NCBI RefSeq assembly: GCF_048403405.1 | Contig: NZ_CP183131.1 | Length of the DNA stretch: 64,000 nucleotides | Reading direction: 5' to 3' (one strand) | From: Escherichia coli | GTDB taxonomy: Bacteria > Pseudomonadota > Gammaproteobacteria > Enterobacterales > Enterobacteriaceae | Shown: positions 16,105 to 56,291 of the stretch, piece after piece | Position numbering within the stretch: position 1 is the first letter of the stretch | How the letters are laid out: the number at the start of each line of letters is the position of its first letter | Made by a program: the position numbers and the translations under genes | Notes under the pieces: generated by a model | Seen by the model: only the letters and a program-made list of their open reading frames with translations | Database searches by the model: none | What the model was told of the DNA's origin: nothing

Positions 16105-16120
16105 TGTCCATTTTGGGCAC
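16105..16120 (+). promoter_or_regulatory. FlhDC-family (SetCD/AcaCD-like) activator box TGTCCATTTTGGGCAC
   Basis: One of six related GCCC/GTCC-N5-GGGC boxes in promoter regions; ~80 bp upstream of the 16202 start. Confidence 0.5.
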
Positions 16121-16201
16121 TTCGAGAGGTCAGGTTACAGATTGACCGCATTTATCCTTTCCAGTGCGTTTATCTGTACCTCAAATTTAGGAGTATCTCT
16201 A

Positions 16202-16843
16202 ATGGCAGAAGCACAAGTAGCACTGGACACAAACAACGACCGCAGCAACCACTACTCTCGCCCTGTTTTCAAGCAAGTTCTGAAAGTAAACAGCCTCCAA
16301 GCTCAGCGCGTCATGGAACGCAGCTTTGAGCGAGTTTCCAACTCCCTGTTCTCCATCGACGTGATCCTTCGCATCATCGGTGAGCAGGACGAAATCGACC
16401 AGGTTGAAACCGTCATCCTGGAACACATTTCCAAGGTCTCCGAAGACCTGGACAAAGCTACCGCCCAGCTCAACAAGCTGATGGAAGACAACGGCATCGA
16501 CATGATGCCCGGCTACACCAACCCGAATGAATACACCATCGAGATCAACTCTCCTCAGGTTGCTCAGTTTGCACACCTGATCCGCAAACTGGATACCCTG
16601 ATGGGGATCGTTGACACTCTCTGGCTGAACACCGTACTGACCAGCAAGCAGCGCACCGACGCCACTTACCAATGGCAGCAACGCCTCATCAAGCTGGCCG
16701 GTCGAATCATCGGCATCGAGAAACGGGCTCGCATTTCCGCCCACAGCAAAGGCAAAGAAGGTGAAGTGGCCGAAGCCGCTCCGGAATCTGCAACCGGCGA
16801 CAAGGAAATCGCAGACGAAGCCGAGAAAACAAAAGCAGCATAA
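16202..16843 (+). CDS. hypothetical protein (213 aa), box-associated
   Basis: ORF track 16142..16843; RBS AGGAG before internal ATG. Confidence 0.55.
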   Translation: MAEAQVALDTNNDRSNHYSRPVFKQVLKVNSLQAQRVMERSFERVSNSLFSIDVILRIIGEQDEIDQVETVILEHISKVSEDLDKATAQLNKLMEDNGIDMMPGYTNPNEYTIEINSPQVAQFAHLIRKLDTLMGIVDTLWLNTVLTSKQRTDATYQWQQRLIKLAGRIIGIEKRARISAHSKGKEGEVAEAAPESATGDKEIADEAEKTKAA

Positions 16844-16859
16844 CCCAGCCCAAACCTTT

Positions 16860-16887
16860 GCCCCTCGCCCGAGGGGCTTTTTTTTGT
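16860..16887 (+). terminator. intrinsic terminator
   Basis: GCCCCTCG-CC-CGAGGGGC followed by T8. Confidence 0.7.
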
Positions 16888-16965
16888 CTTTTATGGTTGC
16901 ATTTTTTGATGCTGTGATATTATCGAAGTAAATCAGATTCAACTCAGGTAAGAACGGAGAACAAC

Positions 16966-17826
16966 ATGAAAAAGGCTTTAATCACCACCGTGGCTCTGGC
17001 TGTAGCAGCTCTATCTGGCTGTGCATCCACCAGCAGTTACGAACCCACAGCGTACAAAACCAATCACAGTCGCGCTTACAACATCGCGGAGGCCGGTGGC
17101 CTGGTAACAGGCATCCAAGACGCTTCTGTTCCGCGTGACAAGCTGGAGCGTCTGACCGACACCAAAACGTTTGGGGCAGCCTACGTGCTGTCTGGCTACA
17201 TGTCCCCTCAGCTCGGAATGACCGACTGGCAAGGTGGCTTGGTCAACCTTGCGAACTGGGCTATCGGCCCCAAACAGCATGGCGCTCGCAATAGCTTGAT
17301 CGCTTGGATGCCTGCTAACGAAGCAGTTTCACCGGCAGACGCTCAGGCCAAATTTCTTTCACATGTGAAAGTTTCCATTGAGTCAGCGCTGACTGATTTG
17401 GGTGCCAATTTCACGCTTCTGTATGACAAAGATGGTCGCCTAACCTATCAGTTCTACAAGAATGAATGGGGTTGCCCGACGTGGGTGAACGGACAAAGTA
17501 AGGTAGCTGACATGTGTTCCGTTAAGGTGAAAATCGTGGAGCCTCGCCTAGGGTCAGCTCCTAATTTTGTCTCTGGCGTTCAAGGTACAGCGTATGCCTT
17601 CACATCAGGCCATGAGACCGCATACAACTTTGTGAATGTCGGTAATGGGGCAGCAAGCCATGCTCCTCAGCAAGCGATCTACGCAGCTATTAGCAAACAG
17701 CTACCAGCTTGGGCCTACCTCTACCTTGCTCCAAAATCGGTTGAGCTGGATAATGGCGAAAAAGTTGCTTTCCCTTACCTTCTTGATCAGGGAAAAGCAG
17801 AGTTATTTGTTTACCCAGAAGCGTAA
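16966..17826 (+). CDS. lipoprotein (286 aa)
   Basis: Signal peptide with lipobox LSGC; RBS ACGGAGAA. Confidence 0.6.
   Translation: MKKALITTVALAVAALSGCASTSSYEPTAYKTNHSRAYNIAEAGGLVTGIQDASVPRDKLERLTDTKTFGAAYVLSGYMSPQLGMTDWQGGLVNLANWAIGPKQHGARNSLIAWMPANEAVSPADAQAKFLSHVKVSIESALTDLGANFTLLYDKDGRLTYQFYKNEWGCPTWVNGQSKVADMCSVKVKIVEPRLGSAPNFVSGVQGTAYAFTSGHETAYNFVNVGNGAASHAPQQAIYAAISKQLPAWAYLYLAPKSVELDNGEKVAFPYLLDQGKAELFVYPEA
17356..17371. promoter_or_regulatory. palindrome CTTTCACATGTGAAAG (parS-like), intragenic copy
   Basis: Read directly; inside the lipoprotein CDS. Confidence 0.5.
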
Positions 17827-17840
17827 TCAATCTACATGAG

Positions 17841-17867
17841 AAAGGGGCCGAAAGGCCCCTTTTTTTA
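17841..17867. terminator. convergent terminator between lipoprotein gene and traN
   Basis: GGGGCC-GAAA-GGCCCC with T7 on plus strand and A-tract upstream. Confidence 0.65.
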
Positions 17868-20663
17868 TCCACCACCACCAGTTGGCGCGCCTGTTTGAGG
17901 GTCTATGCTGTTTGTCGCCTCTTTTCGCTTCGCGTCAATATCAATCCCTTCCAACCGCTCCAACGCCCTTTCCTGAGCATTCTTCCGCGTCCCGTCAATA
18001 TTGAAGTCATTCCCTGCTCCAGTCAGCGAGTCGAGATTTATTGAGGCCGGATCAGGGAATTTACCGTTCTGCTGTAATATCCCAAGCCACTCATCCAAAT
18101 TAATTTTGCTCCAATCAATTTCGGCAATTTTATCTAGTGGAATCCCTTCACACTGAGGATTTTTGGGGTCTCCAAAGTTCTGCCCCAATTGAGGGCGAAC
18201 CTGTTCTTGTATAATACGAGAGAGCGGAGAATTGAAGCAGCAATACGCTTCTCTTTTTTCAATACAAGCGCCCAACACCTTAGATTTACAATAAGAGCCT
18301 ACATAGGTGCAATTCTTGAGCGCTCTTTTGGCGTTCATAGTGAACTCTTCTTCCTCGCACTTATAAATCATCTGGATCATCACCATCGCAACGACATAGA
18401 CGGTATATATCGTCATGGCAGTGCTAAGCCATGTTGTCGCAGTCTCCATCATTGCTTCGGCAGCTTGTTCAGATGCTGCGGCAGCCGCCTGCTCTGTTGC
18501 TGCATCTTGGCCTGCTGATTTCATGACATCCATCATCACTTCTTTGACTTGCTCTTTGAGCTGGTCAATGAGTTGATCAACAAACTGCTCTACAGGCTGG
18601 AAGAACGAATCAACAGCACCTGAAACGTTCTCTATATAACTTGTGAACGGTTTTGTGACTTCTGTCCACCCTTGAAGGGCAGGTTCCCTAAGTACCTGAT
18701 AAGCACCTTTAAGCGCATTACCATCAGTCAGCCCCATCACTGCGCCATCGAGCTTTGGAACGGCCATTATTAGGTTCAGATAATCGGCAAGAGATATATT
18801 GGTTGGCTTTTCACAGCAATCAGAAACTCCCCCAACAGCTATCTTGCATTCGCCAGCTTCCCCTGCAAAAGCAGAGCAAATAACGTTTTCATCCCCGGTA
18901 GGATTGTCATCCCCATCTTGGCCTGTGCAGCTCATATCCTGCGTCATGAATTGGGCTGCATTGAGCAACGCAGTAGCGCGAGCAAAATCAGTGCTTTGTG
19001 TTTTGGTCAAATCAAGGCAGTCATCTCCCATGCAGCGTATAGGCCCACCGCACTGGTACTCAGTTTCCTTTTCCAAGGTCGGAACAGAAACATCTGTACC
19101 ACAGTCATAAGTATCCTCGTGGACGTAGCACGTACCAGAACTTCCCTGAGCACCATCAACACATTTGGAACTGATGAAGCCGCACTGAGGGTTTTCTTCA
19201 TATTTCTGACAGCTATCGAGATTCCCGCCCGTGTTTACCGGACAGTGCGTTTCACCTTGAGGGTCTGTCCAGCAGTCCATTTGCCCCTTATAAAAGTCAT
19301 AGTCAGCTTTAACTCGAACCTTTTTGCATAGTTTTGGAATACCAGGCAAAGGTGACGGCTTGAGTTGAGATTCGCAAACTTTGATCCCATTGATGACTGT
19401 GCAGCCCGTAGCATCAGTCGGGTCATCTATACATGTGATCTCGCCTTCCGCAAAACCATCTACAACCCCTTTGGCTGAATCCATGCAGCTCTGTGGAGCC
19501 CACTCATCCTTGGTAATGGCTTTTGATGGGTCATAGCGTAGCTTTATGCGGCCAAAACCCTCACCTGCGCCAGTTACTGAAACGCGGATCTTAAACGTAA
19601 CAACATCACCATCTTTCACATTCTTGAAATAGGGAGTGACATCAATATTAGGGTTTCGCTCCCAACTTGTTGACAATTCACATCGGCCAGCCGTTTCTGG
19701 AGGGAAATTGCCGTCAGGGCCGGACCATACTTTAGTTTCCTGACCTGATTTACCAACCCAAACTTGCATGTAGTCATCCCACTTGGCGTACTCAAGAGTT
19801 GCAGACACTATGGCGTCTGGATTACTGACTTGGACCCGCGTGTATTCCTCATAAATCGAACAGTTGCCACTCCAGTAGTCGTTACCAACTCGGCCAATCC
19901 ACAACTCAGTACAGCCTTCTCCACAAGATTTGAGGTTATATGGACCATCATAGTGCTTCACCACAGAGGCATCGTAGTCATGGACAACCTCACAGTCCGC
20001 GCTTTGATCTACAACACGCTGACACCGTTCATACTCTGGAATGTGGGCGTTGATAGTATTCTGATTGATGGTTGTTTCGGCAGAACAATCCCCAAAGCCA
20101 CCTGCGATGAGGTCCATATCCTCATAGGTCTTTTTGCTTAGATTTAGTACAGGGTCATTACTGAAATCAGGGCGTGATCGATTAGAGGCATCGAGAAGAA
20201 CCTTGTATGCCGCACCAGAGATTGATGGATTAGCACTATTGGCATCACTCCACAGCGACCCTTTTGCATTATTCCCCACGCTGTCCATGTCATCGCCAGA
20301 GTCGTAAATGCCTTGCAGACCGCCCACATCAGGTTTATTGGCATCAGGGAAGTAATAACTATCAGGTTTATTGTTGGTCCCGCTCGTTCCGGGGAATAGA
20401 TCATTGACATTAATCTGACTCCCCCCGTTCATTTGGAATTGACCGTCTTTCAACGTCGGCATAGAGATTGTGCCATCTTGCACAGTCCCCGAGCTCGACT
20501 TGAATGAGTTTGAGAGGTTTTGTCCGAAAGCCTGGGCCTCTTTACCCACCGCTGTGATGTCCTGGTCTTGGCTACCGTTAGCGTAGGAATGTATCGGCAG
20601 CGCAGACATGGTTACTGTCAACAGCGAGGCCACAGCTTTCATAAAGTAATTATGACTTCGCAT
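17865..20663 (-). CDS. traN: mating-pair stabilisation outer-membrane protein TraN
   Basis: Cys-rich 932 aa with signal peptide; position after traU; ORF track 17865..20675, RBS TGGAGAA before MRSHNYF. Confidence 0.85.
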   Translation of the reverse strand: MRSHNYFMKAVASLLTVTMSALPIHSYANGSQDQDITAVGKEAQAFGQNLSNSFKSSSGTVQDGTISMPTLKDGQFQMNGGSQINVNDLFPGTSGTNNKPDSYYFPDANKPDVGGLQGIYDSGDDMDSVGNNAKGSLWSDANSANPSISGAAYKVLLDASNRSRPDFSNDPVLNLSKKTYEDMDLIAGGFGDCSAETTINQNTINAHIPEYERCQRVVDQSADCEVVHDYDASVVKHYDGPYNLKSCGEGCTELWIGRVGNDYWSGNCSIYEEYTRVQVSNPDAIVSATLEYAKWDDYMQVWVGKSGQETKVWSGPDGNFPPETAGRCELSTSWERNPNIDVTPYFKNVKDGDVVTFKIRVSVTGAGEGFGRIKLRYDPSKAITKDEWAPQSCMDSAKGVVDGFAEGEITCIDDPTDATGCTVINGIKVCESQLKPSPLPGIPKLCKKVRVKADYDFYKGQMDCWTDPQGETHCPVNTGGNLDSCQKYEENPQCGFISSKCVDGAQGSSGTCYVHEDTYDCGTDVSVPTLEKETEYQCGGPIRCMGDDCLDLTKTQSTDFARATALLNAAQFMTQDMSCTGQDGDDNPTGDENVICSAFAGEAGECKIAVGGVSDCCEKPTNISLADYLNLIMAVPKLDGAVMGLTDGNALKGAYQVLREPALQGWTEVTKPFTSYIENVSGAVDSFFQPVEQFVDQLIDQLKEQVKEVMMDVMKSAGQDAATEQAAAAASEQAAEAMMETATTWLSTAMTIYTVYVVAMVMIQMIYKCEEEEFTMNAKRALKNCTYVGSYCKSKVLGACIEKREAYCCFNSPLSRIIQEQVRPQLGQNFGDPKNPQCEGIPLDKIAEIDWSKINLDEWLGILQQNGKFPDPASINLDSLTGAGNDFNIDGTRKNAQERALERLEGIDIDAKRKEATNSIDPQTGAPTGGGG

Positions 20664-20778
20664 TGTGTTCTCCATTTCAACCTTCCCATGCTATCTGAGA
20701 AGACAAGGGCCACCTGTACGTGTAGTGGCCCTTTTGGGGCATAATCTAAAATGCCCGTGCAAATTCGTTAGGGTCTGC

Positions 20779-27689: not shown

Positions 27690-27765
27690 GTCTATCCCCT
27701 AAGATTGGATTACTGGATGCTGGGCAGTGTATCCGGGGGAGGGAAATAGACTCGCCTCTGTAATA

Positions 27766-27779
27766 GCCCAATTTGGACA
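27766..27779 (-). promoter_or_regulatory. FlhDC-family activator box (minus-sense TGTCCAAATTGGGC)
   Basis: Plus strand GCCCAATTTGGACA, reverse orientation of the 16105 box; ~80 bp upstream of dsbC. Confidence 0.5.
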
Positions 27780-27837
27780 ATTCCAGCGCGATACAAAAAA
27801 AAGCCCGGTCTGAACCGGGCTTTGAGAGGAATGAACC

Positions 27838-33369: not shown

Positions 33370-33502
33370 CGCATTCTCCATTCGTTTTGAGTTACAAGAA
33401 CCCAATGCTGGAGGTTACGGGAGGGAGTGCATAAACATGGGCTGTGGAAGTGCCCTTTTTGAGCAAATAAGGAAATAGTTGGAATTTGTTATGACTGGAC
33501 TT

Positions 33503-33965: not shown

Positions 33966-34544
33966 CTATTTGGTTGTTTCAGACTTCGGTTCGTGTTGTA
34001 CCGTTTGCAGCGGTCTCAAAACTGGCTCACTTTGCGGTGTGCCATCCCCAATCACCCACCTGCGCGGTTCGATTTCGGTATAGACATACCCTGTCACGAT
34101 GAGATCACCATTGGTGTCCTCCCAGGGAGCTACCCAAATCCGCATAACCTGTGCTGGTGTACGAATTGGAATCGGGCGATCCGGAAGACGCGGTGCGACA
34201 TAGTTGTCAATCACCGGGTCTCCGGAGCTAGATGAGTTCGCTGAAACGTTTGAGGAACCTTCGCCATCCGCTTCCGCTTTGGCCTCGACTTCCTCTGGTT
34301 TCATTGGGCGCGGGACATTTCCGTCATTGGTTGCGGCGTAAACGTCTCGCGCTGACATACACTGAACACCATTCGGCATTCCCGGACAGCTATACTCATC
34401 CTTGCCGATGTTGAACGTCGAACAGCCCGACAAAATAAGTAGCGCTGCACCCACCCCCAACATCTTTGCGGATCTTACTGCCTGTTCCTTTTGAGCCTCG
34501 CCTCTGGAACTGCCCTTTCTGGTCAAAATGTTCAAATTTTTCAT
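33966..34544 (-). CDS. traV: T4SS lipoprotein TraV
   Basis: Lipobox LILSGCS; gene order. Confidence 0.75.
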   Translation of the reverse strand: MKNLNILTRKGSSRGEAQKEQAVRSAKMLGVGAALLILSGCSTFNIGKDEYSCPGMPNGVQCMSARDVYAATNDGNVPRPMKPEEVEAKAEADGEGSSNVSANSSSSGDPVIDNYVAPRLPDRPIPIRTPAQVMRIWVAPWEDTNGDLIVTGYVYTEIEPRRWVIGDGTPQSEPVLRPLQTVQHEPKSETTK

Positions 34545-37659: not shown

Positions 37660-37727
37660 AGCAACCCTCTTCTTTTCCTAGTGGCCTGTATTCTCATTCA
37701 GGGTCACTGATTTTCTGCCACGGCTTC

Positions 37728-37744
37728 GCGCCCTTTTCGGGCAC
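37728..37744. promoter_or_regulatory. FlhDC-family activator box GCGCCCTTTTCGGGCAC upstream of traL
   Basis: ~70-85 bp upstream of traL start. Confidence 0.5.
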
Positions 37745-37756
37745 TTCCAGCGACAA

Positions 37757-38324: not shown

Positions 38325-38399
38325 AGACCCTCCAAATAACTTGTCGTCATCACGGAGTAATCGTCTCTTAATTGATCAATCTAGGAACAGTGCTGTTAC

Positions 38400-38415
38400 G
38401 GCCCATTTTGGGCAC
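38400..38415. promoter_or_regulatory. FlhDC-family activator box GGCCCATTTTGGGCAC
   Basis: In the 38325..38504 intergenic region. Confidence 0.5.
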
Positions 38416-38460
38416 TTTATGGAGGTTTATTCGAGGAGATGATAAGAGCGGGAGGCGAAA

Positions 38461-38480: not shown

Positions 38481-38504
38481 CAAAGCGGCCAATGGCCGCT
38501 TGTT

Positions 38505-39544: not shown

Positions 39545-39553
39545 GGTTCCTCT

Positions 39554-40000: not shown

Positions 40001-40009
40001 CCTCCCTCC

Positions 40010-41180: not shown

Positions 41181-41190
41181 AGCTCTGCTC

Positions 41191-43056
41191 TTACTGGGTC
41201 AATATGGGCAGACGGCCTTTTACGATTGTTCCGCCTGAAATTTTGGCTATGTATTCCAGGTTCGGAAGCATTCCCAATAACTGGGCTGGGAACAGATCAG
41301 CTTCCTCCTCCATCAAACGCTCGCCTTGGTTGCCTCCGTGCATAATGGGCTCCTTGCCATCCGAGTTCTGGCCTTGAGTCCGCATGACGTACTTGAGCCG
41401 GGTCTTCGGCAGGTTATCCGCGATATACTCCTGGGTTTCACCATCGACGATACGCAGAGCAAACGTGTTGTTGATGTTCCCCAACACCTGGAGCGCTTTG
41501 TCTTTGCTACCCAGTCGAGCTGCGAAGTCAGCAAAAGTCTGAGTTGCAACGAAAAGACGAAGTTTCGCACCGCGACCTTTGTTCAGGAGCTGGATGAACG
41601 GGTCGTTGATCACCTCGGCAGCCTCATCAACAAAGATATTTACGGGTCTGTTGTTGACGCCGTAGTTGTATCTGTCACCGGCAACCGCTGTCAGGTCTGA
41701 CAGGAAGATGGACCCCATAGCACTACCAACCATGTTGTCGGTCAGGGAGTCGAGCCCCAGATAAGCAACTTGAGCGTTGTTGATGATTTTTGCGGAATCG
41801 GTGATCTGGCGTTCGTCGCTCAGATCAGATGAGTCTGGAGACAGCAGAGGGCCTAGCTCCCCGGACGTCAGCATATTCATGATCGGCAGGAGGTTCGCCA
41901 CCATCTTGGAGAAGTGGGTTTGGTCGTGCTGGAACATCGACAGCAAGCCTTCCAGGTCAGAGTTCGGGTGCTCAGGTTGGATGATGTCGTAGTAGAACTT
42001 CATCAACGCGAAAGCGATCTTCTCACGCGAACCGTTTTTGGCTTTTTCCAAGTAAGCCGCTGCTTCTGCCTCCCAGTCGGGCATAACTCGCTCTGAGTAA
42101 GCCTGAACGGCCTTGATGACCAAGCCAGCAGCGCCACCTTCAAGGAATCGGCGGAGCTTTGTCAGGTTGGGACGATCATGAGTGATGACCAAGCCCTGAG
42201 CGATGTTGTTCAGTGCCTGCCATCCAAATGATTTGAACGGGTCGGCCCCTGCTTCGGACGGGATCAACGCTGCCAAACGACTTGCGATTTCAGTCACGCG
42301 GGTGAAGTTACGCAGAGGGTCGATACGCACCGACTCTTCCGGGAATGCTGGATGAAATGAGACGAATCTTTCCGGCTGCCCCATAGCTTCACAGGCACGT
42401 CGGGCATTGTCCCGCATCTCCTTATCCCCTTTCGGGTCTATGATGATCACGGCTTCCCCACGCAGAATGGCCTGTGAAATCAGGATGTCGAACATACGGG
42501 TCTTGCCCGAGCCGGTGGTCCCAACGATCAGCGAATGCCCCTCAGTGTGCTTGAGTGGCTGCATCAGCTTCTCTTCTTTGGGCTCTACCCCGTGAATCCA
42601 GGGCTGGCCGATTGGCAGCTCCTTTTTCTTACCCTGTATCTTCCGGACAACCTTTTTGACCGTGGACTCTCTCCCTACGATGGAAGTCCAGTCGCGTTTC
42701 AGGATCTCAAACACGCGCTGGGCATGGCGGTTTTCCCACAGGAACCCACTACCAAGCCACATATCGTCCGGCGTGTCCTTGATGTACTTTTGGAGCTCCG
42801 CAATGGAAATAAACTCCAGATCACGCCCCTTCAAATGCTTTTGGAGCAGGTGAAGTTTGATAGCCTTGGGCAAACGAGCCATCGCCATCACGCCACAGAT
42901 CCCCGTCATCCAATAGAATGGCTCCGGCGGCATCGTGCTGACTTGCTCTACGGCCAAAGCCGCGCCGGAGGCGGCAAGCCAGCCTGCTACAGCATTTTTT
43001 TCATAGTTGGGCCGCCACGGCATCTCGTAGGCGAGCGGGTCATAACTCATTGTCAT
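41191..43056 (-). CDS. traD: type IV coupling protein TraD
   Basis: 621 aa; Walker A GTTGSGKT; N-terminal TM; follows traI. Confidence 0.9.
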   Translation of the reverse strand: MTMSYDPLAYEMPWRPNYEKNAVAGWLAASGAALAVEQVSTMPPEPFYWMTGICGVMAMARLPKAIKLHLLQKHLKGRDLEFISIAELQKYIKDTPDDMWLGSGFLWENRHAQRVFEILKRDWTSIVGRESTVKKVVRKIQGKKKELPIGQPWIHGVEPKEEKLMQPLKHTEGHSLIVGTTGSGKTRMFDILISQAILRGEAVIIIDPKGDKEMRDNARRACEAMGQPERFVSFHPAFPEESVRIDPLRNFTRVTEIASRLAALIPSEAGADPFKSFGWQALNNIAQGLVITHDRPNLTKLRRFLEGGAAGLVIKAVQAYSERVMPDWEAEAAAYLEKAKNGSREKIAFALMKFYYDIIQPEHPNSDLEGLLSMFQHDQTHFSKMVANLLPIMNMLTSGELGPLLSPDSSDLSDERQITDSAKIINNAQVAYLGLDSLTDNMVGSAMGSIFLSDLTAVAGDRYNYGVNNRPVNIFVDEAAEVINDPFIQLLNKGRGAKLRLFVATQTFADFAARLGSKDKALQVLGNINNTFALRIVDGETQEYIADNLPKTRLKYVMRTQGQNSDGKEPIMHGGNQGERLMEEEADLFPAQLLGMLPNLEYIAKISGGTIVKGRLPILTQ

Positions 43057-46031: not shown

Positions 46032-46109
46032 GTAGGTTGACCATATTCCTATCGTATTTCTCGTCGCTACATGCTCTCAAAACACCTTTAGATCGCACAC
46101 ACGCCTATC

Positions 46110-46124
46110 TGTCCAATTTGGGCA
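46110..46124 (+). promoter_or_regulatory. FlhDC-family activator box TGTCCAATTTGGGCAG
   Basis: Between divergent traI and lipoprotein gene; same orientation as the 16105 box. Confidence 0.5.
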
Positions 46125-46198
46125 GTTTGAGAAACCAGCTTTCCATCCCCCCCCTTTTAGAATGGGCTCATCGACAATTTTTGATGAGGAACGACACG

Positions 46199-46816
46199 AT
46201 GAGACAACTGATAGCAATTCTGGGAGTGGCAATTCTGGCCGGGTGTGCCTCTAACGCCCCCGAGCAAAAGCCTCAGCCCCAGACTGCCCCTGCCGAAAAT
46301 GACAAACCTGCCCGAGTTAGCCGGGAACTGTCGATGGCATGGGACAACATGGGGCGCGGTGGTGCTGCATTACGTCAACCTGGTTATATCCATGTGCTGG
46401 GCGACGGTAATGTCAGCGCAACGATGAACAAGGTCAAAGATGACTCCGCTGGTTCAGATAAAACTCCAGCAGGGATCAAGCAGCACGGGGATGTGAACGA
46501 AGCCATCAATACCTTCAAGTCCATGAATAAAGGCAAAGGCTACTCGCTGTACGAGTTGTCACGCTGGGAACGCTATTGCGATGGCGGCAAAGGTATGGAC
46601 GAGCACGATTGGCGCTTTGTGGAAGCCGAGGGGACTACAAACATCCCCAAGGATGTTGTAACCGGCTGCATACCACCTACCCACACCTATCAAGATTATC
46701 TGAATGCCTGGACGCACTTTTGCACCAGCCAGGCTGTAACTGACGCAGATCGCCGCATTGTGCGCGAGTCCGTGCGTCCCTATTCAGTGGTGAACCCATG
46801 CAAAGCTCTGAAATAA
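46199..46816 (+). CDS. lipoprotein (205 aa)
   Basis: ORF track 46037..46816; start moved to MRQLIAILGVAILAGC (lipobox) after RBS GAGGAA. Confidence 0.55.
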   Translation: MRQLIAILGVAILAGCASNAPEQKPQPQTAPAENDKPARVSRELSMAWDNMGRGGAALRQPGYIHVLGDGNVSATMNKVKDDSAGSDKTPAGIKQHGDVNEAINTFKSMNKGKGYSLYELSRWERYCDGGKGMDEHDWRFVEAEGTTNIPKDVVTGCIPPTHTYQDYLNAWTHFCTSQAVTDADRRIVRESVRPYSVVNPCKALK

Positions 46817-47031
46817 GAAACCAGACAGAGCCAAGCCGTAAGGCTGAGCTCTTCGACGCTTTATCAATCATGCTCCAGGAGGCCGGTTCGAGGGGTAATT
46901 CCCGCGAAGCGGCCTATGTCATTTCTGGAGTCCTCGAAAACCTCTCCAGAGACTACCCCGAAGTCAAAGGTCTGGCCCAAAGCTGGGCTGAGCTGGCGAA
47001 TCTGGAATCAAAGATGAGAGGAGCTGCTTAA
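46798..47031 (+). CDS. hypothetical small protein (77 aa)
   Basis: ORF track; fills gap before topB; weak RBS. Confidence 0.35.
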   Translation: MQSSEIRNQTEPSRKAELFDALSIMLQEAGSRGNSREAAYVISGVLENLSRDYPEVKGLAQSWAELANLESKMRGAA

Positions 47032-49223
47032 TGGACCTTTATATCTGCGAGAAGCCTTCTCAGGCCAAAGATTTGGCTGGCGTAATGAAGGCCTCCCAAC
47101 GAGGTGATGGATTTCTCCATGATGGAGGAAACCGCGTTATTACGTGGGCGTTCGGCCACCTGCTGGAATTGTATATGCCAGACGATTATGACGAACGCTA
47201 CAAGTCATGGTCACTGGAGACCCTCCCTATTGCACCAGAGTCATGGCGGTACAACGTTCGCAAGAGTGCGTTCAAACAGTACAAAATTGTTGAGGGACTG
47301 GTCAAAAAGGCGAGCACCATCTACATCTCAACGGACTACGACCGAGAAGGTGAGGCTATCGCCCGTTCGCTTCTGGATCGATTCCGCTACTCTGGCCCTA
47401 TTCGCCGGGTTTGTTTGACGGCTCTCGATGAGTCAAGCATCAAGAAAGCGCTGAACAACGTAAAGGATGGCAAGGATACGGTCTCACTCTACTACGCCGC
47501 ATTGGCACGGCAACGCGCTGACTGGTTGGTAGGCATGAACGTGAGCCGCCTCTACACAGTGCTGGCCCGAGATGTCGGCTTCAACCACACTCTTCACGTT
47601 GGCAGGGTTATCACCCCAACCGTCGCTCTTGTTTGTCAACGGGACCGAGAGATCGCCGGTTTCACCCCCTCACCATACTGGACTCTGGGTGTGAACGTGT
47701 CCGTACAGAATGGACAGTTTGCCGCCCAATGGATACCACCAGAAGAGTGCAGTGACGAGCAAGGCCGGTGCGTCAATAAGGCCTATGCCGAGCAGGTAGC
47801 CTCCCAGGTCAATGGTGCCAATGCTGTTATCAGCAAAGCAGAAACCAAACCAGGTAAAGAGTCAGCCCCCCTCCCCTTCGATCTAACGTCGCTGCAACAA
47901 TACGCAAGCAAACGATGGGGATACACCGCTCAGCAGGTACTGGATGCAGCTCAAGCTCTGTACGAGACGCACAAAGCGACCACCTACCCTCGTACTGATA
48001 GTCGTTATCTACCCGAGAGCCAAAAGGAAGACATTCCGGACATTCTCCAGGCGCTCATTTTGTCCGATCAGAACGTCTCTGGGCTGGTGGCTGGCGCAGA
48101 TCCTCATCGCAAGGCCAGGGTATTCAATGACGCCAAAGTGACCGCGCACCACGCGATCATTCCAACACCGGCCAGAACAGACATCAGTGCCATGTCTGAG
48201 ATCGAGTTCAATCTTTACGACGCCATCCGTCGTTTCTACATCGCGCAGTTCTACAGCGAGTTCGAGTTCACCAAAACCTCCATCGAGGTGCAGTGTGGGC
48301 GTCACCTCTTTGCGGCCTCTGGTAAGACACCTGCCAAACAAGGCTGGAAGGTTTTGTTTGCTTCTGATAGTGAAAGCAGTCCCAAGGACGAGGGGGAAGA
48401 CACCGACGCGCCGGTTGAACAAGAGAAGCTCCCCAGGGTTAGCCAGGGCGAACCCGCTTTGCTTAATGGTGCCGAGCTGGCAAACAAAATGACGCGGCCA
48501 GCACCGCACTTCACCGAAGCCACATTGCTTGCCGCGATGGAGAACATTGCCCGGTTCGTGACTGAGGAGAAGTTCAAGCAAATTCTCAAAGACACAGCCG
48601 GTTTAGGCACTCCAGCAACACGCGCAAGCATCATCCAGGGCGCTGTTGATAAAGGCTACTTCAAACGTCAGAAAAAGGTACTGCTTGCAACTGATAAGGC
48701 TCATGCGCTTATCGCAGTGCTTCCACCAGCCATCAAATCACCCGGCATGACTGCGGCTTGGGAGCAGGAGCTTGAGAAAGTCGCCTCCGGCTCCGGGAAT
48801 ATGTCTGTCTTCATGAAGCAGATTTCCACCTGGATCTGCCAAATGGTTGAGCAGCTCAAAGTGCCCGCACCGGTTCTGACCAAAGAAGGTGGCGCGATGG
48901 CTAAAGCCTTCGAGGGCGCTAAGCCGCCTTCACACGAATGCTTCAACTGCGGTGGAGAGATGCACCGGATCAAAGGGAAGAACGGATTTTTCTGGGGCTG
49001 CCAGAACGAGGCTTGCAAGAAGACGTTCCCAGACAACCGAGGGAAACCCGAGAAGCGTATCGCGGCTGAGGATTGTCCAGACTGCCCAGATTGCGGTAGC
49101 CCGATGCGTCTCAGGAAAGGAAAAGCGCCCGGCAAGAAGCGAGCTTCTAAGTTCTGGGGCTGCACCGCCTATCCCGATTGCAAAGGCACTATGCCCTTCA
49201 AAAAGTCGGACTTTATGGATTGA
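47031..49223 (+). CDS. topB: DNA topoisomerase III
   Basis: Toprim N-terminus, active-site region TYPRTDSRYL, two C-terminal Cys4 zinc ribbons. Confidence 0.9.
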   Translation: MDLYICEKPSQAKDLAGVMKASQRGDGFLHDGGNRVITWAFGHLLELYMPDDYDERYKSWSLETLPIAPESWRYNVRKSAFKQYKIVEGLVKKASTIYISTDYDREGEAIARSLLDRFRYSGPIRRVCLTALDESSIKKALNNVKDGKDTVSLYYAALARQRADWLVGMNVSRLYTVLARDVGFNHTLHVGRVITPTVALVCQRDREIAGFTPSPYWTLGVNVSVQNGQFAAQWIPPEECSDEQGRCVNKAYAEQVASQVNGANAVISKAETKPGKESAPLPFDLTSLQQYASKRWGYTAQQVLDAAQALYETHKATTYPRTDSRYLPESQKEDIPDILQALILSDQNVSGLVAGADPHRKARVFNDAKVTAHHAIIPTPARTDISAMSEIEFNLYDAIRRFYIAQFYSEFEFTKTSIEVQCGRHLFAASGKTPAKQGWKVLFASDSESSPKDEGEDTDAPVEQEKLPRVSQGEPALLNGAELANKMTRPAPHFTEATLLAAMENIARFVTEEKFKQILKDTAGLGTPATRASIIQGAVDKGYFKRQKKVLLATDKAHALIAVLPPAIKSPGMTAAWEQELEKVASGSGNMSVFMKQISTWICQMVEQLKVPAPVLTKEGGAMAKAFEGAKPPSHECFNCGGEMHRIKGKNGFFWGCQNEACKKTFPDNRGKPEKRIAAEDCPDCPDCGSPMRLRKGKAPGKKRASKFWGCTAYPDCKGTMPFKKSDFMD

Positions 49224-52120: not shown

Positions 52121-53547
52121 TATCTACCTTCCTTACTTCTGATACCGTGCTGCACCACGGTATGGCGACCGCAATTCACATTCAGGTGATCCCGAACTGC
52201 GGCCATGACCGCTGAATGCAATCTGTAATCCACACTCTGCCCAAGCGTTTCTGTCGCTTGTTCTTTTGCCATCCACGAAACATCAAAGCTATCAGGTATC
52301 GACATCAACTCCTGAACCAGATCGACCGATGGCTTGTAAATGCGGCCACCGTCTTGGATGTACACTGCATCCTTTACCCCACGATCCTGAGACTTGAGGA
52401 TGGTCGGGCAACTGGTGCTTTCTCTCGTCAAGAACGCAGGCATCCTGCGAGAAGTTGACTCTCTGGCCTGAATTGACTTCAACACTGTGACGTCAGCACA
52501 ATCCCCGAGGTGCTTCTCGATCACCGGCCACAATCGTCCACCAGCTCTCTGCTCAGGTTTCGGTGGAACGAACCCAGGGAAGACCGACGCCACCATGTAA
52601 TAGCGTTCTCGCCCCTGGTAAGCGCCGAAATCCAGACCGTTCAAGACCATCTCAGTGAGGAAGTACCCCATCCGCCGCAGTGTCGTTCCCATCATCGCCC
52701 CGGCTCCGGATGCTTTGAAGTTCGGGACGTTTTCCACCAGCACGACGGCAGGGTTCACGACCTCGATCTGTTTTAGTGCCGGGTAAACCATGTCGAGCAT
52801 GGTGGAGAGATCCTCAAGAGAACGCTCTTTGTCCCTTGGACTTTTGGCGTTTGAGTGGTCATCACACCCCAACGAGTAATGGGCCAAACCAATTGGTGGG
52901 CACTCCGCCAGCAAGGCTCCAAGGCGATCCAGCTCCAGGTGATGAATGTCTTCATTCAGCAGGATACGCGGGGAGCTGTTCACCAGCGTATTGAGCGCAT
53001 GTACTTCACTCAGGTTCCGCCCGGATGCTCTGTCTCTGGCTTCAACTGGACGATGCTCCAAAACAATCTCAGCCTTCCAGCCAAGCGCTTCCATAACATG
53101 AATGTCTACCCCGCCAGTCAATGCCACAAAGGCACGGAAAGGGCTGGTTTTTCTGAACCGATCCGCAATGGCAAAGGCTCTGTTTGCGACAGGAGTGAAG
53201 ACTACTCGGCCTTTTCGCATTTCGACGTGGAAACGCTCTGTATAGCGAGGGAAGCACTTATCTATGAGCCCTTGTCCAGAAAACTCAATAACGGTTTCCA
53301 GCGGGTTGTTGGAGCGACTCTTTGGTTGATACCGGCGCTGATAAACCTGGTGTGTCTGTAGTTCATCGGTCGCTGGGATCACCGAAAAACCGCCCATCCC
53401 CTCCCCTGGCTCAACGGCGATGCCCATACCTGGCTTGAACCCCATAACATCCAAAAAGTTGGACGAAACCCTAACCTTGCGTTTATCGCCTACTCGATTG
53501 AACGCAAGTTGTTTGGTTACTACGGAGGGGGAGACGATCGGTAACAT
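52120..53547 (-). CDS. C5-methyltransferase-like protein, paralog of the gene at 1..1007, Gly-Cys in place of catalytic Pro-Cys
   Basis: ALTGGVD (motif I-like), SLGCDDHSNAKS (motif IV position), VENVPNF (motif VI); related N-terminal domain. Confidence 0.6.
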   Translation of the reverse strand: MLPIVSPSVVTKQLAFNRVGDKRKVRVSSNFLDVMGFKPGMGIAVEPGEGMGGFSVIPATDELQTHQVYQRRYQPKSRSNNPLETVIEFSGQGLIDKCFPRYTERFHVEMRKGRVVFTPVANRAFAIADRFRKTSPFRAFVALTGGVDIHVMEALGWKAEIVLEHRPVEARDRASGRNLSEVHALNTLVNSSPRILLNEDIHHLELDRLGALLAECPPIGLAHYSLGCDDHSNAKSPRDKERSLEDLSTMLDMVYPALKQIEVVNPAVVLVENVPNFKASGAGAMMGTTLRRMGYFLTEMVLNGLDFGAYQGRERYYMVASVFPGFVPPKPEQRAGGRLWPVIEKHLGDCADVTVLKSIQARESTSRRMPAFLTRESTSCPTILKSQDRGVKDAVYIQDGGRIYKPSVDLVQELMSIPDSFDVSWMAKEQATETLGQSVDYRLHSAVMAAVRDHLNVNCGRHTVVQHGIRSKEGR

Positions 53548-54051: not shown

Positions 54052-54059
54052 CTATCCCC

Positions 54060-54392: not shown

Positions 54393-54883
54393 TCTTCACT
54401 AAGCAGGAACGCCCAGCGCTCTTCTGCTTTTTCTGGGTTGTCTTTGGCCTGTTTGATCATGATCTCGGCGGCGTTAAAGCCTACCTCTCCACTGAACCGG
54501 CCCCATGAATGGCTATGCCACTCGCGCATCACACTTCGGCCAAGCGATGCAAGTTCTGGACTTACACCCTCATGGAGGGCATAGAGCTCCCAAGCATCCC
54601 ACCCGTATCGTAATAGGTTGTGCCCTGGGGCGTTAAAGGCCTGAGCAGCCTTGAACCGCTCTCCAGGCTCCTTCCCTCTAACATCCACACCCTGGAGCAC
54701 CAACCCCATTACCACTTCAATGACCGGCTCGCGTTGCTTCTTTGCCAGCTCGATGGCAGCCACCAGCATTGCTTTGGCGTCAGCAAATTTCCCATGCCCT
54801 TGGCACATACCGCAGGTTTCTTTGGAAGGGGAAAAGTCATAAACACCGGAACCAGCACAGAGGCGGCATGTCATGTCAATCAT
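54377..54883 (-). CDS. protein with DnaJ-type zinc finger (two CxxCxGxG repeats)
   Basis: CRLCAGSG and CGMCQGHG; RBS AGGAGAGAAG; ORF track 54377..54901. Confidence 0.5.
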   Translation of the reverse strand: MIDMTCRLCAGSGVYDFSPSKETCGMCQGHGKFADAKAMLVAAIELAKKQREPVIEVVMGLVLQGVDVRGKEPGERFKAAQAFNAPGHNLLRYGWDAWELYALHEGVSPELASLGRSVMREWHSHSWGRFSGEVGFNAAEIMIKQAKDNPEKAEERWAFLLSEEWMVE

Positions 54884-55550
54884 GGGCTCTTCTCTCCTCA
54901 TACTCTTCGATGCGCTCTTTCAGACGCTGAACCACTGGTGCGAGCTCAGGGATAGCTTCCGCTTCCTCAAGCGTGTATCGCTTGTCTTCCTGGTAATCGA
55001 CTATTTGAGGAGGCCTTGGCTGTTTAGGGAACTCAGCAAAGTCATTCAGCGACATCGAGGTAGGAAGTCCTCCTTCAATCTCACCTTTTTCGTTGAGTGA
55101 CTGGGTGACGATAAGCTGTGTTCCGCCCACCTCGGTATCAAAGCGGTCATCAAAGCGCTCACCGATAGTCCAGCCGCCACGGCCAAGAACACAGGTCGTA
55201 CTCATACGTAGGCGATTGAATGCTTTAGCGTCATCCCAGTTCAAAGGATTTTCATCCATGAGGAAAAAAGGCGCTTCGTCCCGAACGAACACCTTGGACT
55301 TGGCGTTATCGAAGATCGGCCCAAACACCCCCTGCTGGAGGTATGGTTCGACCTTCTCTGCAAGATCCTGGTGCCCTTGAGAACGCAGCGCCTCATAGAG
55401 CTGGGTGATTGTTTGTTTGCCGGTGCCCGGAAGGCAGGACAATACTGTCTGCTTTTCCTCGTCACTCAGGCTTACCATTCTGGACAAAAAGCTGACTACC
55501 AGCTCGTTGTGCCCATCGACCGTTTCAATGTTGAGCTTGTTCTCGTCCAT
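54876..55550 (-). CDS. hypothetical protein (224 aa)
   Basis: ORF track 54876..55583; RBS GAGGAA. Confidence 0.45.
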   Translation of the reverse strand: MDENKLNIETVDGHNELVVSFLSRMVSLSDEEKQTVLSCLPGTGKQTITQLYEALRSQGHQDLAEKVEPYLQQGVFGPIFDNAKSKVFVRDEAPFFLMDENPLNWDDAKAFNRLRMSTTCVLGRGGWTIGERFDDRFDTEVGGTQLIVTQSLNEKGEIEGGLPTSMSLNDFAEFPKQPRPPQIVDYQEDKRYTLEEAEAIPELAPVVQRLKERIEEYEERRAHD

Positions 55551-55806
55551 CTTCTTCCTCAGTAATCGGTTCGATAAATTCAATGGAGTCCATGCTTACA
55601 TGACTGATAATGGCTTTCAGGCCGCAGCAGTCGCATGGTTCAAAGGTCAGTTCTGATCCCTTGGGAGACTGATGCGTGACCGTTGCCACAGCCCCTAGAG
55701 GGATCACCCCCCAGCCGTTTTTTAGTACCCGAGTAGTTCTGACCAGCCGACCTTTGTACTCTCGTTTCAGTTTCGGATGCGGCACTACCGCATATCGCTT
55801 ACTCAT
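55525..55806 (-). CDS. hypothetical small protein (93 aa)
   Basis: ORF track 55525..55893; RBS AAGGGG before MSKRYAV. Confidence 0.4.
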   Translation of the reverse strand: MSKRYAVVPHPKLKREYKGRLVRTTRVLKNGWGVIPLGAVATVTHQSPKGSELTFEPCDCCGLKAIISHVSMDSIEFIEPITEEEDGREQAQH

Positions 55807-56185
55807 TTCGGTCCCCTTGTACCAAAGGCTCGACAACCAGCTCTTGAGCTTCGTCCCAGTCGGACACCTTTGCATCACCAAACGCAAAGGCAATTCGCAT
55901 AGCCACTGTCGGCCTGCCTATTTTCATCAAGTAAGCCGCAGCACCGGCACACATCGACTCTTGTCCCGAAGGTGCATAGTTACCCTCTTCATCCCATTCA
56001 CCACCTGACTTTGAATGCACGGTCTTGTGGCAATGAAACGTCGTCATGTCGTTTTCAACGATGTCGTTGATGATGCCTTCTAATCGCCCAGGGACCAGCT
56101 CGATAGCGCCCTCCTTCCGGAATGGACAGTTGGCGCAAGGTTTCTTCAAACGGAGATGATTTGCTTGCTTTGGCATACATATCAC
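55799..56185 (-). CDS. hypothetical Cys/His-containing protein (possible zinc ribbon)
   Basis: CANCPF and FHCHKT; non-ATG (GTG) start in track, ATG 9 nt downstream. Confidence 0.4.
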   Translation of the reverse strand: MICMPKQANHLRLKKPCANCPFRKEGAIELVPGRLEGIINDIVENDMTTFHCHKTVHSKSGGEWDEEGNYAPSGQESMCAGAAAYLMKIGRPTVAMRIAFAFGDAKVSDWDEAQELVVEPLVQGDRNE

Positions 56186-56194
56186 TTTTACAGT

Positions 56195-56207
56195 ATCATT
56201 TTATGAT
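56195..56207. promoter_or_regulatory. palindrome ATCATTTTATGAT (operator-like), shared with parA promoter
   Basis: Same sequence reverse-complemented at 59783..59795. Confidence 0.45.
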
Positions 56208-56274
56208 TCTATGATATAGCCATATTCCGTGTAGTCAATATCTCACTAACAATTACTTTCTATCGGACGCTTAC

Positions 56275-56291
56275 GCGCCCATTTTGGGCAG
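56275..56291. promoter_or_regulatory. FlhDC-family activator box GCGCCCATTTTGGGCAG
   Basis: In divergent intergenic hub 56186..56494. Confidence 0.5.

What the first reader, a model, noticed from the sequence alone, without database searches (positions are those of the whole stretch)
16105..56291. Six GCCC/GTCC-N5-GGGC boxes (probable SetCD/AcaCD-type activator sites), one in an unexpected place
Boxes at 16105..16120, 27766..27779, 37728..37744, 38400..38415, 46110..46124 and 56275..56291 precede the dsbC-traC operon, traL operon, the traI / lipoprotein divergent region, the gene at 16202 and two small-membrane-protein or accessory operons. This fits FlhDC-family master activation known for SXT/IncC transfer genes. 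The box at 38400, next to a parS-like palindrome and driving two tiny membrane proteins, and the box at 56275 in the 56.2 kb hub, would extend the regulon to non-transfer genes. The asymmetric GTCC..GGGC versus GCCC..GGAC forms suggest orientation dependence.
Basis: partly seen in the sequence, partly recalled or inferred. Interest (0 to 1): 0.5.

Follow-up and report, generated by a model that had tools for sequence, protein, structure and literature searches.

The report
Known AcaCD activator boxes, IncC plasmid
These short palindromes are the already-mapped DNA sites where the master switch AcaCD of IncC multidrug-resistance plasmids turns on the conjugation genes; they are real and functional, but have been described experimentally since 2014.

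Summary
The window is the backbone of an IncC (IncA/C2) conjugative plasmid, in reverse orientation to the reference pVCR94deltaX. All six boxes are at the stated coordinates and are far more frequent than chance. [quoted passage not shown] They were re-tested by ChIP-exo, Cappable-seq and lacZ fusions (Durand 2021). The published core is GCCCNDWWWGGGC, at -64 to -37 of the start site.

The two "unexpected" boxes are the published vcrx068 promoter (38400) and the published vcrx035/vcrx036 divergent promoters (56275). The "gene at 16202" is acaB, the feedback activator of acaDC.

The sites belong to AcaCD, not SetCD. The GTCC/GGAC asymmetry does not set orientation. Orientation comes from a 3' extension, the A-tract polarity and a fixed distance of about 52 nt to the start site.

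The "parS-like palindrome" is a validated IncC parS site. Its position beside these two boxes was noted in print in 2024.

Verdict: correct reading, already known. The only open point is whether ParB bound at the adjacent parS modulates these promoters.

The parts
6448..6476 (-). AcaCD box of the vcrx098 promoter. Core ACCCGAAAAGGGC, 252 nt upstream of the ATG at 6224.
   Evidence: Identical to pVCR94deltaX 75267-75295. Scores 27.5 bits in the non-circular matrix. No clear 5'-RACE start site was published.
16096..16128 (.). The + strand drives acaB (vcrx086, 16202-16843). The - strand drives vcrx087 (15588-15908).
   Evidence: Matches pVCR94deltaX 65014-65047 with one base different. Mapped start sites fall at window 16165-16167 and 16062-16060. 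The product of 16202-16843 is AcaB, PDB 6N8B, E 1e-135.
20718..20746 (-). AcaCD box of the traN promoter.
   Evidence: Identical to pVCR94deltaX 60398-60426. The start site maps to 20683-20681.
27756..27788 (-). The palindrome also scores in the reverse orientation, but no start site or gene lies there.
   Evidence: Identical to pVCR94deltaX 53355-53388. The start site maps to 27720-27718, and the dsbC ATG is at 27689.
33442..33470 (-). AcaCD box of vcrx076, the 1.8-kaa Ig-like-domain protein. Core GCTCAAAAAGGGC.
   Evidence: Identical to pVCR94deltaX 47674-47702. The start site maps to 33406-33404.
34502..34530 (-). AcaCD box of the internal traV/traA promoter, lying in the traB/traV coding overlap. 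Core GACCAGAAAGGGC.
   Evidence: Identical to pVCR94deltaX 46614-46642. This was the highest ChIP-exo peak in Table S3. The start site maps to 34467-34465.
37720..37752 (-). It sits directly after the vcrx069 terminator at 37787-37760.
   Evidence: Identical to pVCR94deltaX 43391-43424. The start site maps to 37684-37682 and the traL ATG is at 37659. Terminator. A PtraL-lacZ fusion is activated by AcaCD and not by SetCD.
38391..38419 (-). It drives vcrx068 (38324-38181, 47 aa) and vcrx069 (38169-37804, 121 aa), both small hydrophobic proteins.
   Evidence: Identical to pVCR94deltaX 42725-42753, p 6.6e-11. The start site maps to 38355-38353. Expression rises from 0 to 550 with AcaCD. A lacZ fusion was tested in PMC8373056.
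38460..38481 (.). IncC parS site (22-bp inverted repeat, core TTTCACATGTGAAA). Its core lies 51 nt upstream of the vcrx068 AcaCD core.
   Evidence: Perfect palindrome. It is one of 5 exact core copies in the window against 0.4 expected. The core sequence and ParB binding by EMSA are published in PMC10954446. It is 100% conserved in IncA while the spacer to the box has diverged.
46101..46133 (.). The - strand drives traI (mobH relaxase)-traD and downstream genes. The + strand drives vcrx059, a lipoprotein with the lipobox LAGC, at 46199-46816.
   Evidence: Identical to pVCR94deltaX 35010-35043. This is the example shown in Figure 3E of PMC4207636. Start sites map to 46066-46064 and about 46169-46171. 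The lipobox is seen.
56267..56299 (.). The - strand drives the vcrx036-044 operon, which includes a DNA cytosine methyltransferase. The + strand faces vcrx035 (56495-56638), for which no start site was found.
   Evidence: Identical to pVCR94deltaX 20377-20410. The vcrx036 start site maps to 56232-56230, and expression rises from 0 to 320. vcrx035 stays at 0 in both conditions. Both promoters were constitutive in a plasmid-free reporter.
56340..56361 (.). IncC parS site. Its core lies 55 nt upstream of the vcrx036 AcaCD core. On the other strand it covers about +5 to +26 of the position where a vcrx035 start site would be expected.
   Evidence: Exact parS core. Geometry. Conserved with the same spacing in IncA. 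The pairing with the vcrx036 promoter is noted in PMC10954446.

Best explanation
The boxes are operators of AcaCD, the heteromeric FlhDC-family master activator of IncA/IncC conjugative plasmids. The window is an IncC backbone. acaDC itself lies elsewhere on the plasmid, outside the window.

AcaCD binds a 28-29-bp oriented site. Its core is the palindrome GCCCNDWWWGGGC, and a 3' extension (consensus near TTACAGAG) takes the place of a -35 element. The palindrome centre sits 51-54 nt upstream of the transcription start. RNA polymerase is therefore recruited as at a class II promoter that lacks a recognisable -35.

Ten such sites in the window switch on these targets:
- relaxosome genes: traI and traD
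- mating-pore operons: traL-B, traV-A, dsbC-traC-...-traU, and traN
- acaB, the feedback activator
- several operons of unknown function: vcrx036-044, vcrx059-056, vcrx068-069, vcrx076, vcrx087, vcrx098

Three sites (16.1, 46.1 and 56.3 kb) are read in both directions.

Shown here: sequence identity to the mapped sites, enrichment over chance, fixed geometry and conservation in relatives. Shown by others on identical DNA: occupancy, start sites and AcaCD dependence. Inferred: that this particular plasmid behaves the same way.
For: Identity of the element:
- The window is 100% identical to many IncC plasmids. 990 records match, and they are typed IncC, MOBH, MPF_F.

Identity of the sites:
- I extracted the 19 oriented motifs from pVCR94deltaX at the Table S3 coordinates. 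The thirteen that fall in the window reappear there, twelve exactly and one with a single base changed, at ten loci.
- A weight matrix trained only on out-of-window and genomic-island sites recovers the same ten loci at 17-32 bits. The next hit scores 12 bits and random windows' best score averages 14.

Geometry:
- After mapping the published 5'-RACE start sites onto the window, the palindrome centre is 51-54 nt upstream in all 11 promoters that have a start site.
- A sigma-70 consensus scan of 37600-38600, the one stretch scanned, which holds the traL and vcrx068 promoters, finds no promoter-like match at either. This fits class II activation.

Published experiments:
- The published core is GCCCNDWWWGGGC at -64 to -37.
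- There are 17 ChIP-exo peaks, and RNA-seq shows induction of the downstream genes.
- All 18 plasmid promoters were re-confirmed by ChIP-exo, Cappable-seq and lacZ fusions, including vcrx068 and vcrx035-36.

Conservation:
- IncA pRSE15, about 85% identical, keeps all eight sites covered by the fetched locus. The core is 100% conserved while the flanks diverge.
- A much more distant Edwardsiella plasmid keeps boxes at dsbC, traV, traL and traI.

The activator:
- acaDC is present in 1034 plasmid records. These include LT904892.1 and CP012668.1, which match the tested stretch of the window (36000-47000) over its full length at 100.0%.
Against: - The window encodes no AcaC or AcaD. tblastn gives nothing better than E 1.5. 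The activator is therefore inferred from the plasmid family, not seen here.
- No experiment was done on this exact plasmid.
- At 56275 the dependence on AcaCD is less clean than elsewhere. vcrx035 has no mapped start site and no expression in the plasmid. P035, P036 and P087 were constitutive in a plasmid-free lacZ reporter.
- The functional orientation of the traL box scores only 10.8 bits with the non-circular matrix, while the opposite orientation scores 19.2 bits. Its 3' extension is atypical.
Confidence: 0.97

Rival explanations
1. The boxes are SetCD operators of the SXT/R391 type, or generic sites read interchangeably by any FlhDC-family activator of the SXT/IncC superfamily.
For: - The transfer genes are syntenic with SXT/R391, and SetCD regulates an equivalent set of operons: traI, traD, traL, traV, dsbC, traF.
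- AcaC and SetC are homologous, at 34% identity.
Against: - SetCD does not activate PtraL, PtraI, PtraF or P152 of pVCR94, and does not complement a delta-acaCD mutant.
- The SetCD motif is stated to differ drastically from the AcaCD motif.
- The element is IncC, not an ICE.
- I could not scan with the SetCD logo itself. Only coordinates are available, not sequences.
Confidence: 0.01
2. The boxes are chance or structural palindromes, such as small hairpins or terminator remnants, with no regulatory role.
For: - GCCC-N5-GGGC could form a 4-bp stem.
- Several boxes sit next to real terminators, for example 37760-37787.
- Loose matches to GYCC-N5-GGRC also occur inside genes: 4124, 5625, 13652, 14402, 36854, 44445, 45531, 55853.
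Against: - The sites are enriched over shuffles.
- They sit at a fixed distance of 51-54 nt from mapped start sites.
- The conservation extends asymmetrically beyond the palindrome.
- The core is perfectly conserved in IncA while neighbouring bases diverge.
- Occupancy and activation are published.
- The loose intragenic matches lack the A/T spacer and the 3' extension. They score below the random-window level.
Confidence: 0.01
3. At 38400 and 56275 the AcaCD box is only half of the control element. The adjacent parS site, bound by the KorB-like ParB, is a second input that silences or gates these promoters. They would then belong to a combined ParB/AcaCD circuit rather than to a simple AcaCD regulon.
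For: - A parS core lies 51 nt (P068) and 55 nt (P036) upstream of the AcaCD core. At P035 it lies at about +5 to +26.
- The same pairing and spacing (49 and 55 nt) occur in IncA, with a diverged spacer between two perfectly conserved elements.
- On pVCR94deltaX, 4 of 12 parS cores lie 22-55 nt upstream of 4 of the 17 AcaCD sites. I estimate about 0.2 would be expected if placement were random.
- In a distant Edwardsiella plasmid, parS clusters again flank AcaCD-type boxes.
- The best solved-structure relative of IncC ParB is the RK2 global repressor KorB, 8QA8, E 9e-21.
- P035 and P036 are silent in the delta-acaCD plasmid but constitutive in a reporter strain without the plasmid. This points to a plasmid-encoded repressor.
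- The pairing and a possible crosstalk are proposed in PMC10954446.
Against: - No experiment addresses ParB at these plasmid promoters. The authors state the work is ongoing, and no later paper turned up.
- parS sites favour intergenic DNA in any case, which weakens the statistic.
- In the Edwardsiella plasmid a terminator separates the parS cluster from the traL box. Co-location may therefore reflect shared use of intergenic space.
- Other plasmid repressors, such as Acr1 or the H-NS-like Acr2, could explain the difference between reporter and plasmid.
- P068 behaves as an ordinary AcaCD-dependent promoter in the reporter.
Confidence: 0.3

Closest known systems
AcaCD-dependent promoters of IncA/IncC plasmids (pVCR94deltaX; Carraro et al. 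2014 PLoS Genet, PMC4207636; Durand et al. 2021 NAR, PMC8373056)
   Same: Everything matches. The sequences are the same, twelve of thirteen oriented motifs identical and one differing by a single base. The downstream genes are the same. The distance to the mapped start sites is the same. The plasmid family is the same.
   Different: Nothing of substance. The window is another IncC isolate, with a different accessory segment between 46.8 and 56.2 kb and with the sul2-strAB island at its right end.
[quoted passage not shown]
   Same: SgaCD binds all the same boxes on the IncC plasmid, and the islands mimic the same motif. A matrix built largely from island sites finds the window's sites.
   Different: Those sites lie on chromosomal islands that parasitise the plasmid. 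The sites here are the plasmid's own.
SetCD boxes of SXT/R391 integrative conjugative elements (Poulin-Laprade et al. 2015, PMC4344509)
   Same: The logic is the same: a heteromeric FlhDC-type activator, class II geometry next to a missing -35, an equivalent set of tra operons, and divergent back-to-back sites.
   Different: The DNA motif is different. The two activators are not exchangeable.
FlhD4C2 class II flagellar promoters of E. coli and Salmonella
   Same: The activator family is the same, and activation from just upstream of the -35 is the same.
   Different: AcaCD's motif is stated to be unrelated to the FlhDC box, and the regulon is different.
IncC parS/ParB and the KorB-OB operator network of RK2
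   Same: The palindromes beside boxes 38400 and 56275 are validated ParB-binding parS sites. IncC ParB carries a KorB domain.
   Different: A regulatory role like that of KorB has not been shown for IncC ParB, except for repression of its own parA promoter.

Membership tests
AcaCD operator / AcaCD-dependent promoter (IncA/IncC) | Core palindrome GCCCNDWWWGGGC, with tolerated single deviations | tested here: met
   All ten window sites carry it. Exact: 38401 and 56277. One deviation: 16106 and 46111 (GTCC), 27766 (GGAC), 33452, 34512 and 6458.
AcaCD operator / AcaCD-dependent promoter (IncA/IncC) | Match to the full oriented 28-29-nt motif, including the 3' extension | tested here: met
   17-32 bits with a matrix trained on out-of-window sites only. 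Random windows' best score averages 14.0. Twelve of the thirteen oriented published motifs recur exactly and one differs by a single base.
AcaCD operator / AcaCD-dependent promoter (IncA/IncC) | Class II position: site at -64 to -37 of the start site, with no canonical -35 | tested here: met
   With published start sites mapped onto the window, the palindrome centre is at -51 to -54 in 11 of 11 promoters. A consensus scan of 37600-38600, which holds the traL and vcrx068 promoters, found no sigma-70-like match at either. The start sites themselves were not measured here.
AcaCD operator / AcaCD-dependent promoter (IncA/IncC) | Cognate acaDC genes on the same replicon | tested here: inconclusive
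   They are absent from the 64-kb window. They are present in plasmids that match the tested stretch 36000-47000 of the window at 100.0%, LT904892.1 and CP012668.1, and in 1034 records overall. The rest of this plasmid is not available.
AcaCD operator / AcaCD-dependent promoter (IncA/IncC) | In vivo occupancy by AcaCD and AcaCD-dependent transcription | not testable with these tools
   Published for the identical sequences: ChIP-exo, 5'-RACE and RNA-seq, then ChIP-exo, Cappable-seq and lacZ fusions. Exception: P035, P036 and P087 were constitutive in the reporter.
SetCD operator (SXT/R391) | Match to the SetCD logo and activation by SetCD | not tested
   The SetCD site sequences could not be obtained; only coordinates are given. 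Published results say the motif differs drastically and that SetCD does not activate PtraL, PtraI, PtraF or P152.
IncC parS (ParB-binding centromere-like site) | 14-bp core TTTCACATGTGAAA flanked by AAAC/GTTT-like arms | tested here: met
   There are five exact cores in the window against 0.4 expected. The copy at 38460-38481 reads GAACTTTCACATGTGAAAGTTT on the - strand. ParB binding is published by EMSA for three representative copies.

The most novel reading that the evidence does not exclude
The most novel reading still open is that the KorB-like ParB, possibly together with the essential small HTH protein 053, acts as a second regulator. In that case ParB would silence or gate the vcrx035/036 and vcrx068 promoters, and also vcrx012 and traF elsewhere on the plasmid. 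This would couple part of the AcaCD regulon to partition status or plasmid copy number. It would also explain why P035 and P036 are silent on the plasmid but constitutive in a plasmid-free reporter. The idea has been raised in print (Kiss lab, NAR 2024) but not tested for the plasmid's own promoters.
Probability: 0.3. Interest if true: 0.45.

Novelty: already known. Interest (0 to 1): 0.1.

Why it matters
AcaCD is the on-switch for conjugation of IncC plasmids, which are major carriers of carbapenemase and other multidrug-resistance genes. It is also the signal that SGI1-type genomic islands use to excise and be mobilised. Its operators are therefore important, but they have been mapped exhaustively.

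For the scan, this finding works as a positive control. A reader without tools recovered a real regulon motif and correctly named its activator family. It found only the sites with near-perfect half-sites, 6 of 10, and it took two published targets for new ones.

The only part with research value is the conserved pairing of parS with some of these boxes. It makes a ParB-AcaCD crosstalk directly testable.

Tried and rejected
- Extra AcaCD sites beyond the published set. The best further candidates are 45521-45553 inside traI (13.3 bits), 41748 (12.0 bits) and 61309 (12.3 bits). All are at or below the random-window level of about 14 bits, and none has a ChIP-exo peak. Rejected.
- 12544 GCCCTTTTTGGGGC. 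It has a 6-nt spacer and lies inside the ORF at 12401-12940 that lines up with pVCR94's ssb, so it is not an AcaCD box.
- Direct scan with the SetCD logo. This was not possible: the supplement gives coordinates only, and SXT is not in the searchable collections.
- 053 as a KorA-like partner of ParB. There is no sequence similarity to KorA. The only match is a weak hit to an uncharacterised protein, 3KE2, E 6e-4. Left open.
- Function of the non-transfer targets (vcrx036, 038, 039, 041, 043-like, 059, 068, 069, 087, 098). NCBIfam gives nothing, and PHROGs gives only families of unknown function.
- GTCC/GGAC asymmetry as the orientation signal. Rejected.
- Technical: loci fetched by accession (L002-L004) and L006 were not mirrored to the script machine. 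They were analysed through DNA alignment, the DNA search and get_sequence instead.

Full report
**What the window is**

A megablast of 36000-47000 finds 990 plasmid records. Of these, 353 are at least 99% identical, and many match at 100%. Almost all are typed as conjugative, and the fetched records are typed IncC, MOBH, MPF_F. The annotation of one of them and of the reference plasmid pVCR94deltaX (NC_023291.1) shows that the window is the IncC backbone read in the opposite direction to pVCR94. It runs from the vcrx10x region to parAB-053 and the sul2-strAB island. sul2, aph(3'')-Ib and aph(6)-I are confirmed.

**Check of the observation**

GYCC-N5-GGRC occurs 15 times against 4.1 expected, and 0 of 100 shuffles reach 15. 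The tighter 14-mer gives 10 matches against 2.1.

To avoid circularity I built a 29-nt matrix only from AcaCD sites that are not in the window. These were six other pVCR94 sites and the eight SGI1/MGIVmi1 sites of Table 1 in PMC4207636. This matrix ranks ten window loci at 17-32 bits. The next hit scores 12 bits, and the best hit in 200 Markov-random windows averages 14.0 with a 95th percentile of 17.8.

**Comparison with the published map**

Table S3 of Carraro et al. 2014 (PMC4207636) lists 17 ChIP-exo peaks of AcaCD on pVCR94deltaX. It gives motif coordinates, 5'-RACE start sites and RNA-seq values with and without AcaCD. I extracted the 19 oriented motifs at those coordinates and looked for them in the window. 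Thirteen are there, twelve exactly and one with a single base different, at ten loci:

| Window position | Target | Status |
|---|---|---|
| 20718 | traN | missed |
| 27756 | dsbC | box 2 |
| 33442 | vcrx076 | missed |
| 34502 | traV/traA | missed |
| 37720 | traL | box 3 |
| 38391 | vcrx068 | box 4 |
| 46101-46133 | traI and vcrx059 | box 5 |
| 56267-56299 | vcrx036 and vcrx035 | box 6 |

The coordinate offset is constant from 20.7 to 46.1 kb (window = 81144 minus the pVCR94 position). It shifts only where the accessory content differs.

Durand et al. 2021 (PMC8373056) give the core as GCCCNDWWWGGGC at -64 to -37. They repeated ChIP-exo with AcaCD and with SgaCD, added Cappable-seq, and tested every promoter as a single-copy lacZ fusion. 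The vcrx068 and vcrx035-36 promoters were explicitly included.

**Mechanism and geometry**

I mapped the published start sites onto the window. The centre of the palindrome then lies 51-54 nt upstream of the start site in all eleven promoters that have one. A -10-like hexamer follows at a fixed distance, and there is no -35. A consensus sigma-70 scan of 37600-38600, the stretch that holds the traL and vcrx068 promoters, finds no match at either. This is the class II arrangement described by the authors.

The information content of the 18 fully specified aligned sites shows that the motif is asymmetric in three ways:
- The promoter-proximal half GGGC carries 1.4-1.9 bits per position, more than the distal GCCC at 0.9-1.6 bits.
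- The spacer is A-rich on the transcribed-direction strand.
- A 3' extension, T23 A24 (C/G) A26 (C/G), follows the core.

This is what gives the site its direction.

It does not hold. The three sites with a G-to-A deviation are at 16.1, 27.8 and 46.1 kb, and two of them are read in both directions. The deviant half is proximal for traI and vcrx087 and distal for vcrx059, acaB and dsbC. There is no consistent relation to signal strength.

**Which activator**

The window has no AcaC or AcaD homologue. acaDC lies at 117-118 kb of pVCR94. It occurs in 1034 plasmid records, including LT904892.1 and CP012668.1, which match the tested stretch of the window (36000-47000) at 100.0%.

SetCD is excluded by published experiments. 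It does not activate PtraL, PtraI, PtraF or P152, and it does not complement a delta-acaCD mutant. Its motif is said to differ drastically from AcaCD's. I could not scan with the SetCD logo myself.

**The "unexpected" boxes**

Box 38400 is the vcrx068 promoter. Its motif p-value is 6.6e-11, its start site maps to window 38355-38353, and expression rises from 0 to 550 with AcaCD. It drives a 47-aa and a 121-aa hydrophobic protein. Neither has a family match.

Box 56275 is the vcrx035/vcrx036 divergent site. vcrx036-044, which includes a cytosine methyltransferase, rises from 0 to 320. vcrx035 shows no start site and no expression. That the regulon extends beyond transfer genes is a stated conclusion of the 2014 paper.

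The "gene at 16202" is AcaB (PDB 6N8B, E 1e-135). AcaB is the ribbon-helix-helix activator of the acaDC promoter, so box 1 is the node of the AcaCD-AcaB positive feedback loop. That orientation has the best motif score on the whole plasmid.

The next gene, 16966-17826, is sfx, the surface-exclusion lipoprotein. It is expressed independently of AcaCD.

**The palindrome beside box 38400**

AACTTTCACATGTGAAAGTT (38461-38480) has five exact core copies in the window: 1962, 17357, 38464, 56344 and 59759, the last one in front of parA. Only 0.4 would be expected. It is the IncC parS site, core TTTCACATGTGAAA. ParB binding was shown by EMSA in Kiss-lab work (PMC10954446).

That paper already notes that parS lies just upstream of the AcaCD boxes of vcrx012, vcrx036, vcrx068 and traF. 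It proposes crosstalk and states that the work is ongoing. I found no later paper on this.

**What I can add on the parS pairing**

- On pVCR94deltaX the gaps from parS core to AcaCD core are 22 nt (vcrx012), 25 nt (traF), 51 nt (vcrx068) and 55 nt (vcrx036).
- In IncA pRSE15 the same two pairings occur with gaps of 49 and 55 nt. Both parS and the AcaCD core are 100% conserved while the spacer between them has diverged.
- In a distant Edwardsiella plasmid that lacks vcrx068/069, three parS copies lie upstream of the traL box. A nine-copy tandem parS array with a 48-bp period lies 54 nt from another box.
- On the vcrx035 side, parS covers about +5 to +26 of the expected start site.
- The closest solved relative of IncC ParB is the RK2 global repressor KorB.

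P035 and P036 are silent on the delta-acaCD plasmid but constitutive in a plasmid-free reporter. Together with the points above, this makes a plasmid-encoded second input plausible, and ParB is the obvious candidate.

This is an inference, not a result. parS sites prefer intergenic DNA anyway. A terminator separates parS from the traL box in the Edwardsiella plasmid. Acr1 or Acr2 could equally explain the difference between reporter and plasmid.

**Verdict**

The orientation idea is not supported. The novelty claim fails, because every element, including the two "unexpected" boxes and the neighbouring palindrome, is published. Interest is low. The residual open question is ParB-AcaCD crosstalk at the parS-adjacent promoters.

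Noticed in passing
window 33966-34544 (- strand); start site at 34467-34465; ATG at 34463: The AcaCD-dependent start site of the traV promoter falls 77 nt inside the annotated traV ORF. It lies only 2-4 nt upstream of an in-frame ATG (residue 28) that opens a canonical lipoprotein signal peptide, MLGVGAALLILSGC. The true TraV start is probably this ATG, and the promoter's transcript would be nearly leaderless.
   Followed up: partly
window 20675-20683 (- strand): The published traN start site maps 6-8 nt upstream of the ATG at 20675. RefSeq annotation of a sister plasmid starts traN 12 nt further downstream. Either the leader is very short or the start codon is the downstream one.
   Followed up: no
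window 1962, 17357, 38464, 56344, 59759: There are five exact copies of the IncC parS core TTTCACATGTGAAA. One lies inside sfx (17357) and one in front of parA (59759). Two lie next to AcaCD boxes.
   Followed up: yes
L006 (Edwardsiella ictaluri pEI-S15163-1) 39380-39778 and 20202-20349: There is a tandem array of nine parS copies with a 48-bp period, 54 nt from an AcaCD-type box at 39314. Three further parS copies lie upstream of the traL box, in a plasmid that has no vcrx068/069.
   Followed up: partly
L005 (IncA pRSE15) about 39000-39040, against window 56222-56234: IncA has a 13-nt deletion that removes the IncC vcrx036 start-site region. The -10 hexamer stays at the same distance from the AcaCD box: GATAAT in IncA and GATATT in IncC.
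   Followed up: no
window 27760-27788 (+) and 37724-37752 (+): The dsbC and traL boxes score well in the reverse orientation too: 22-25 and 18-19 bits. The reverse orientations point into the 3' end of vcrx076 and into the vcrx069 terminator. No start site is published there. With the non-circular matrix, the reverse orientation of the traL box scores higher than the functional one.
   Followed up: no
window 57418-57696 (- strand), ORF 053: This is the small HTH protein downstream of parB, reported as essential for plasmid maintenance but with an unknown role. It has no detectable similarity to RK2 KorA and only a weak hit to an uncharacterised structure, 3KE2.
   Followed up: partly
window 60501-63016 (+): The right end of the window enters a resistance island: sul2, aph(3'')-Ib (strA) and aph(6)-I (strB).
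   Followed up: yes
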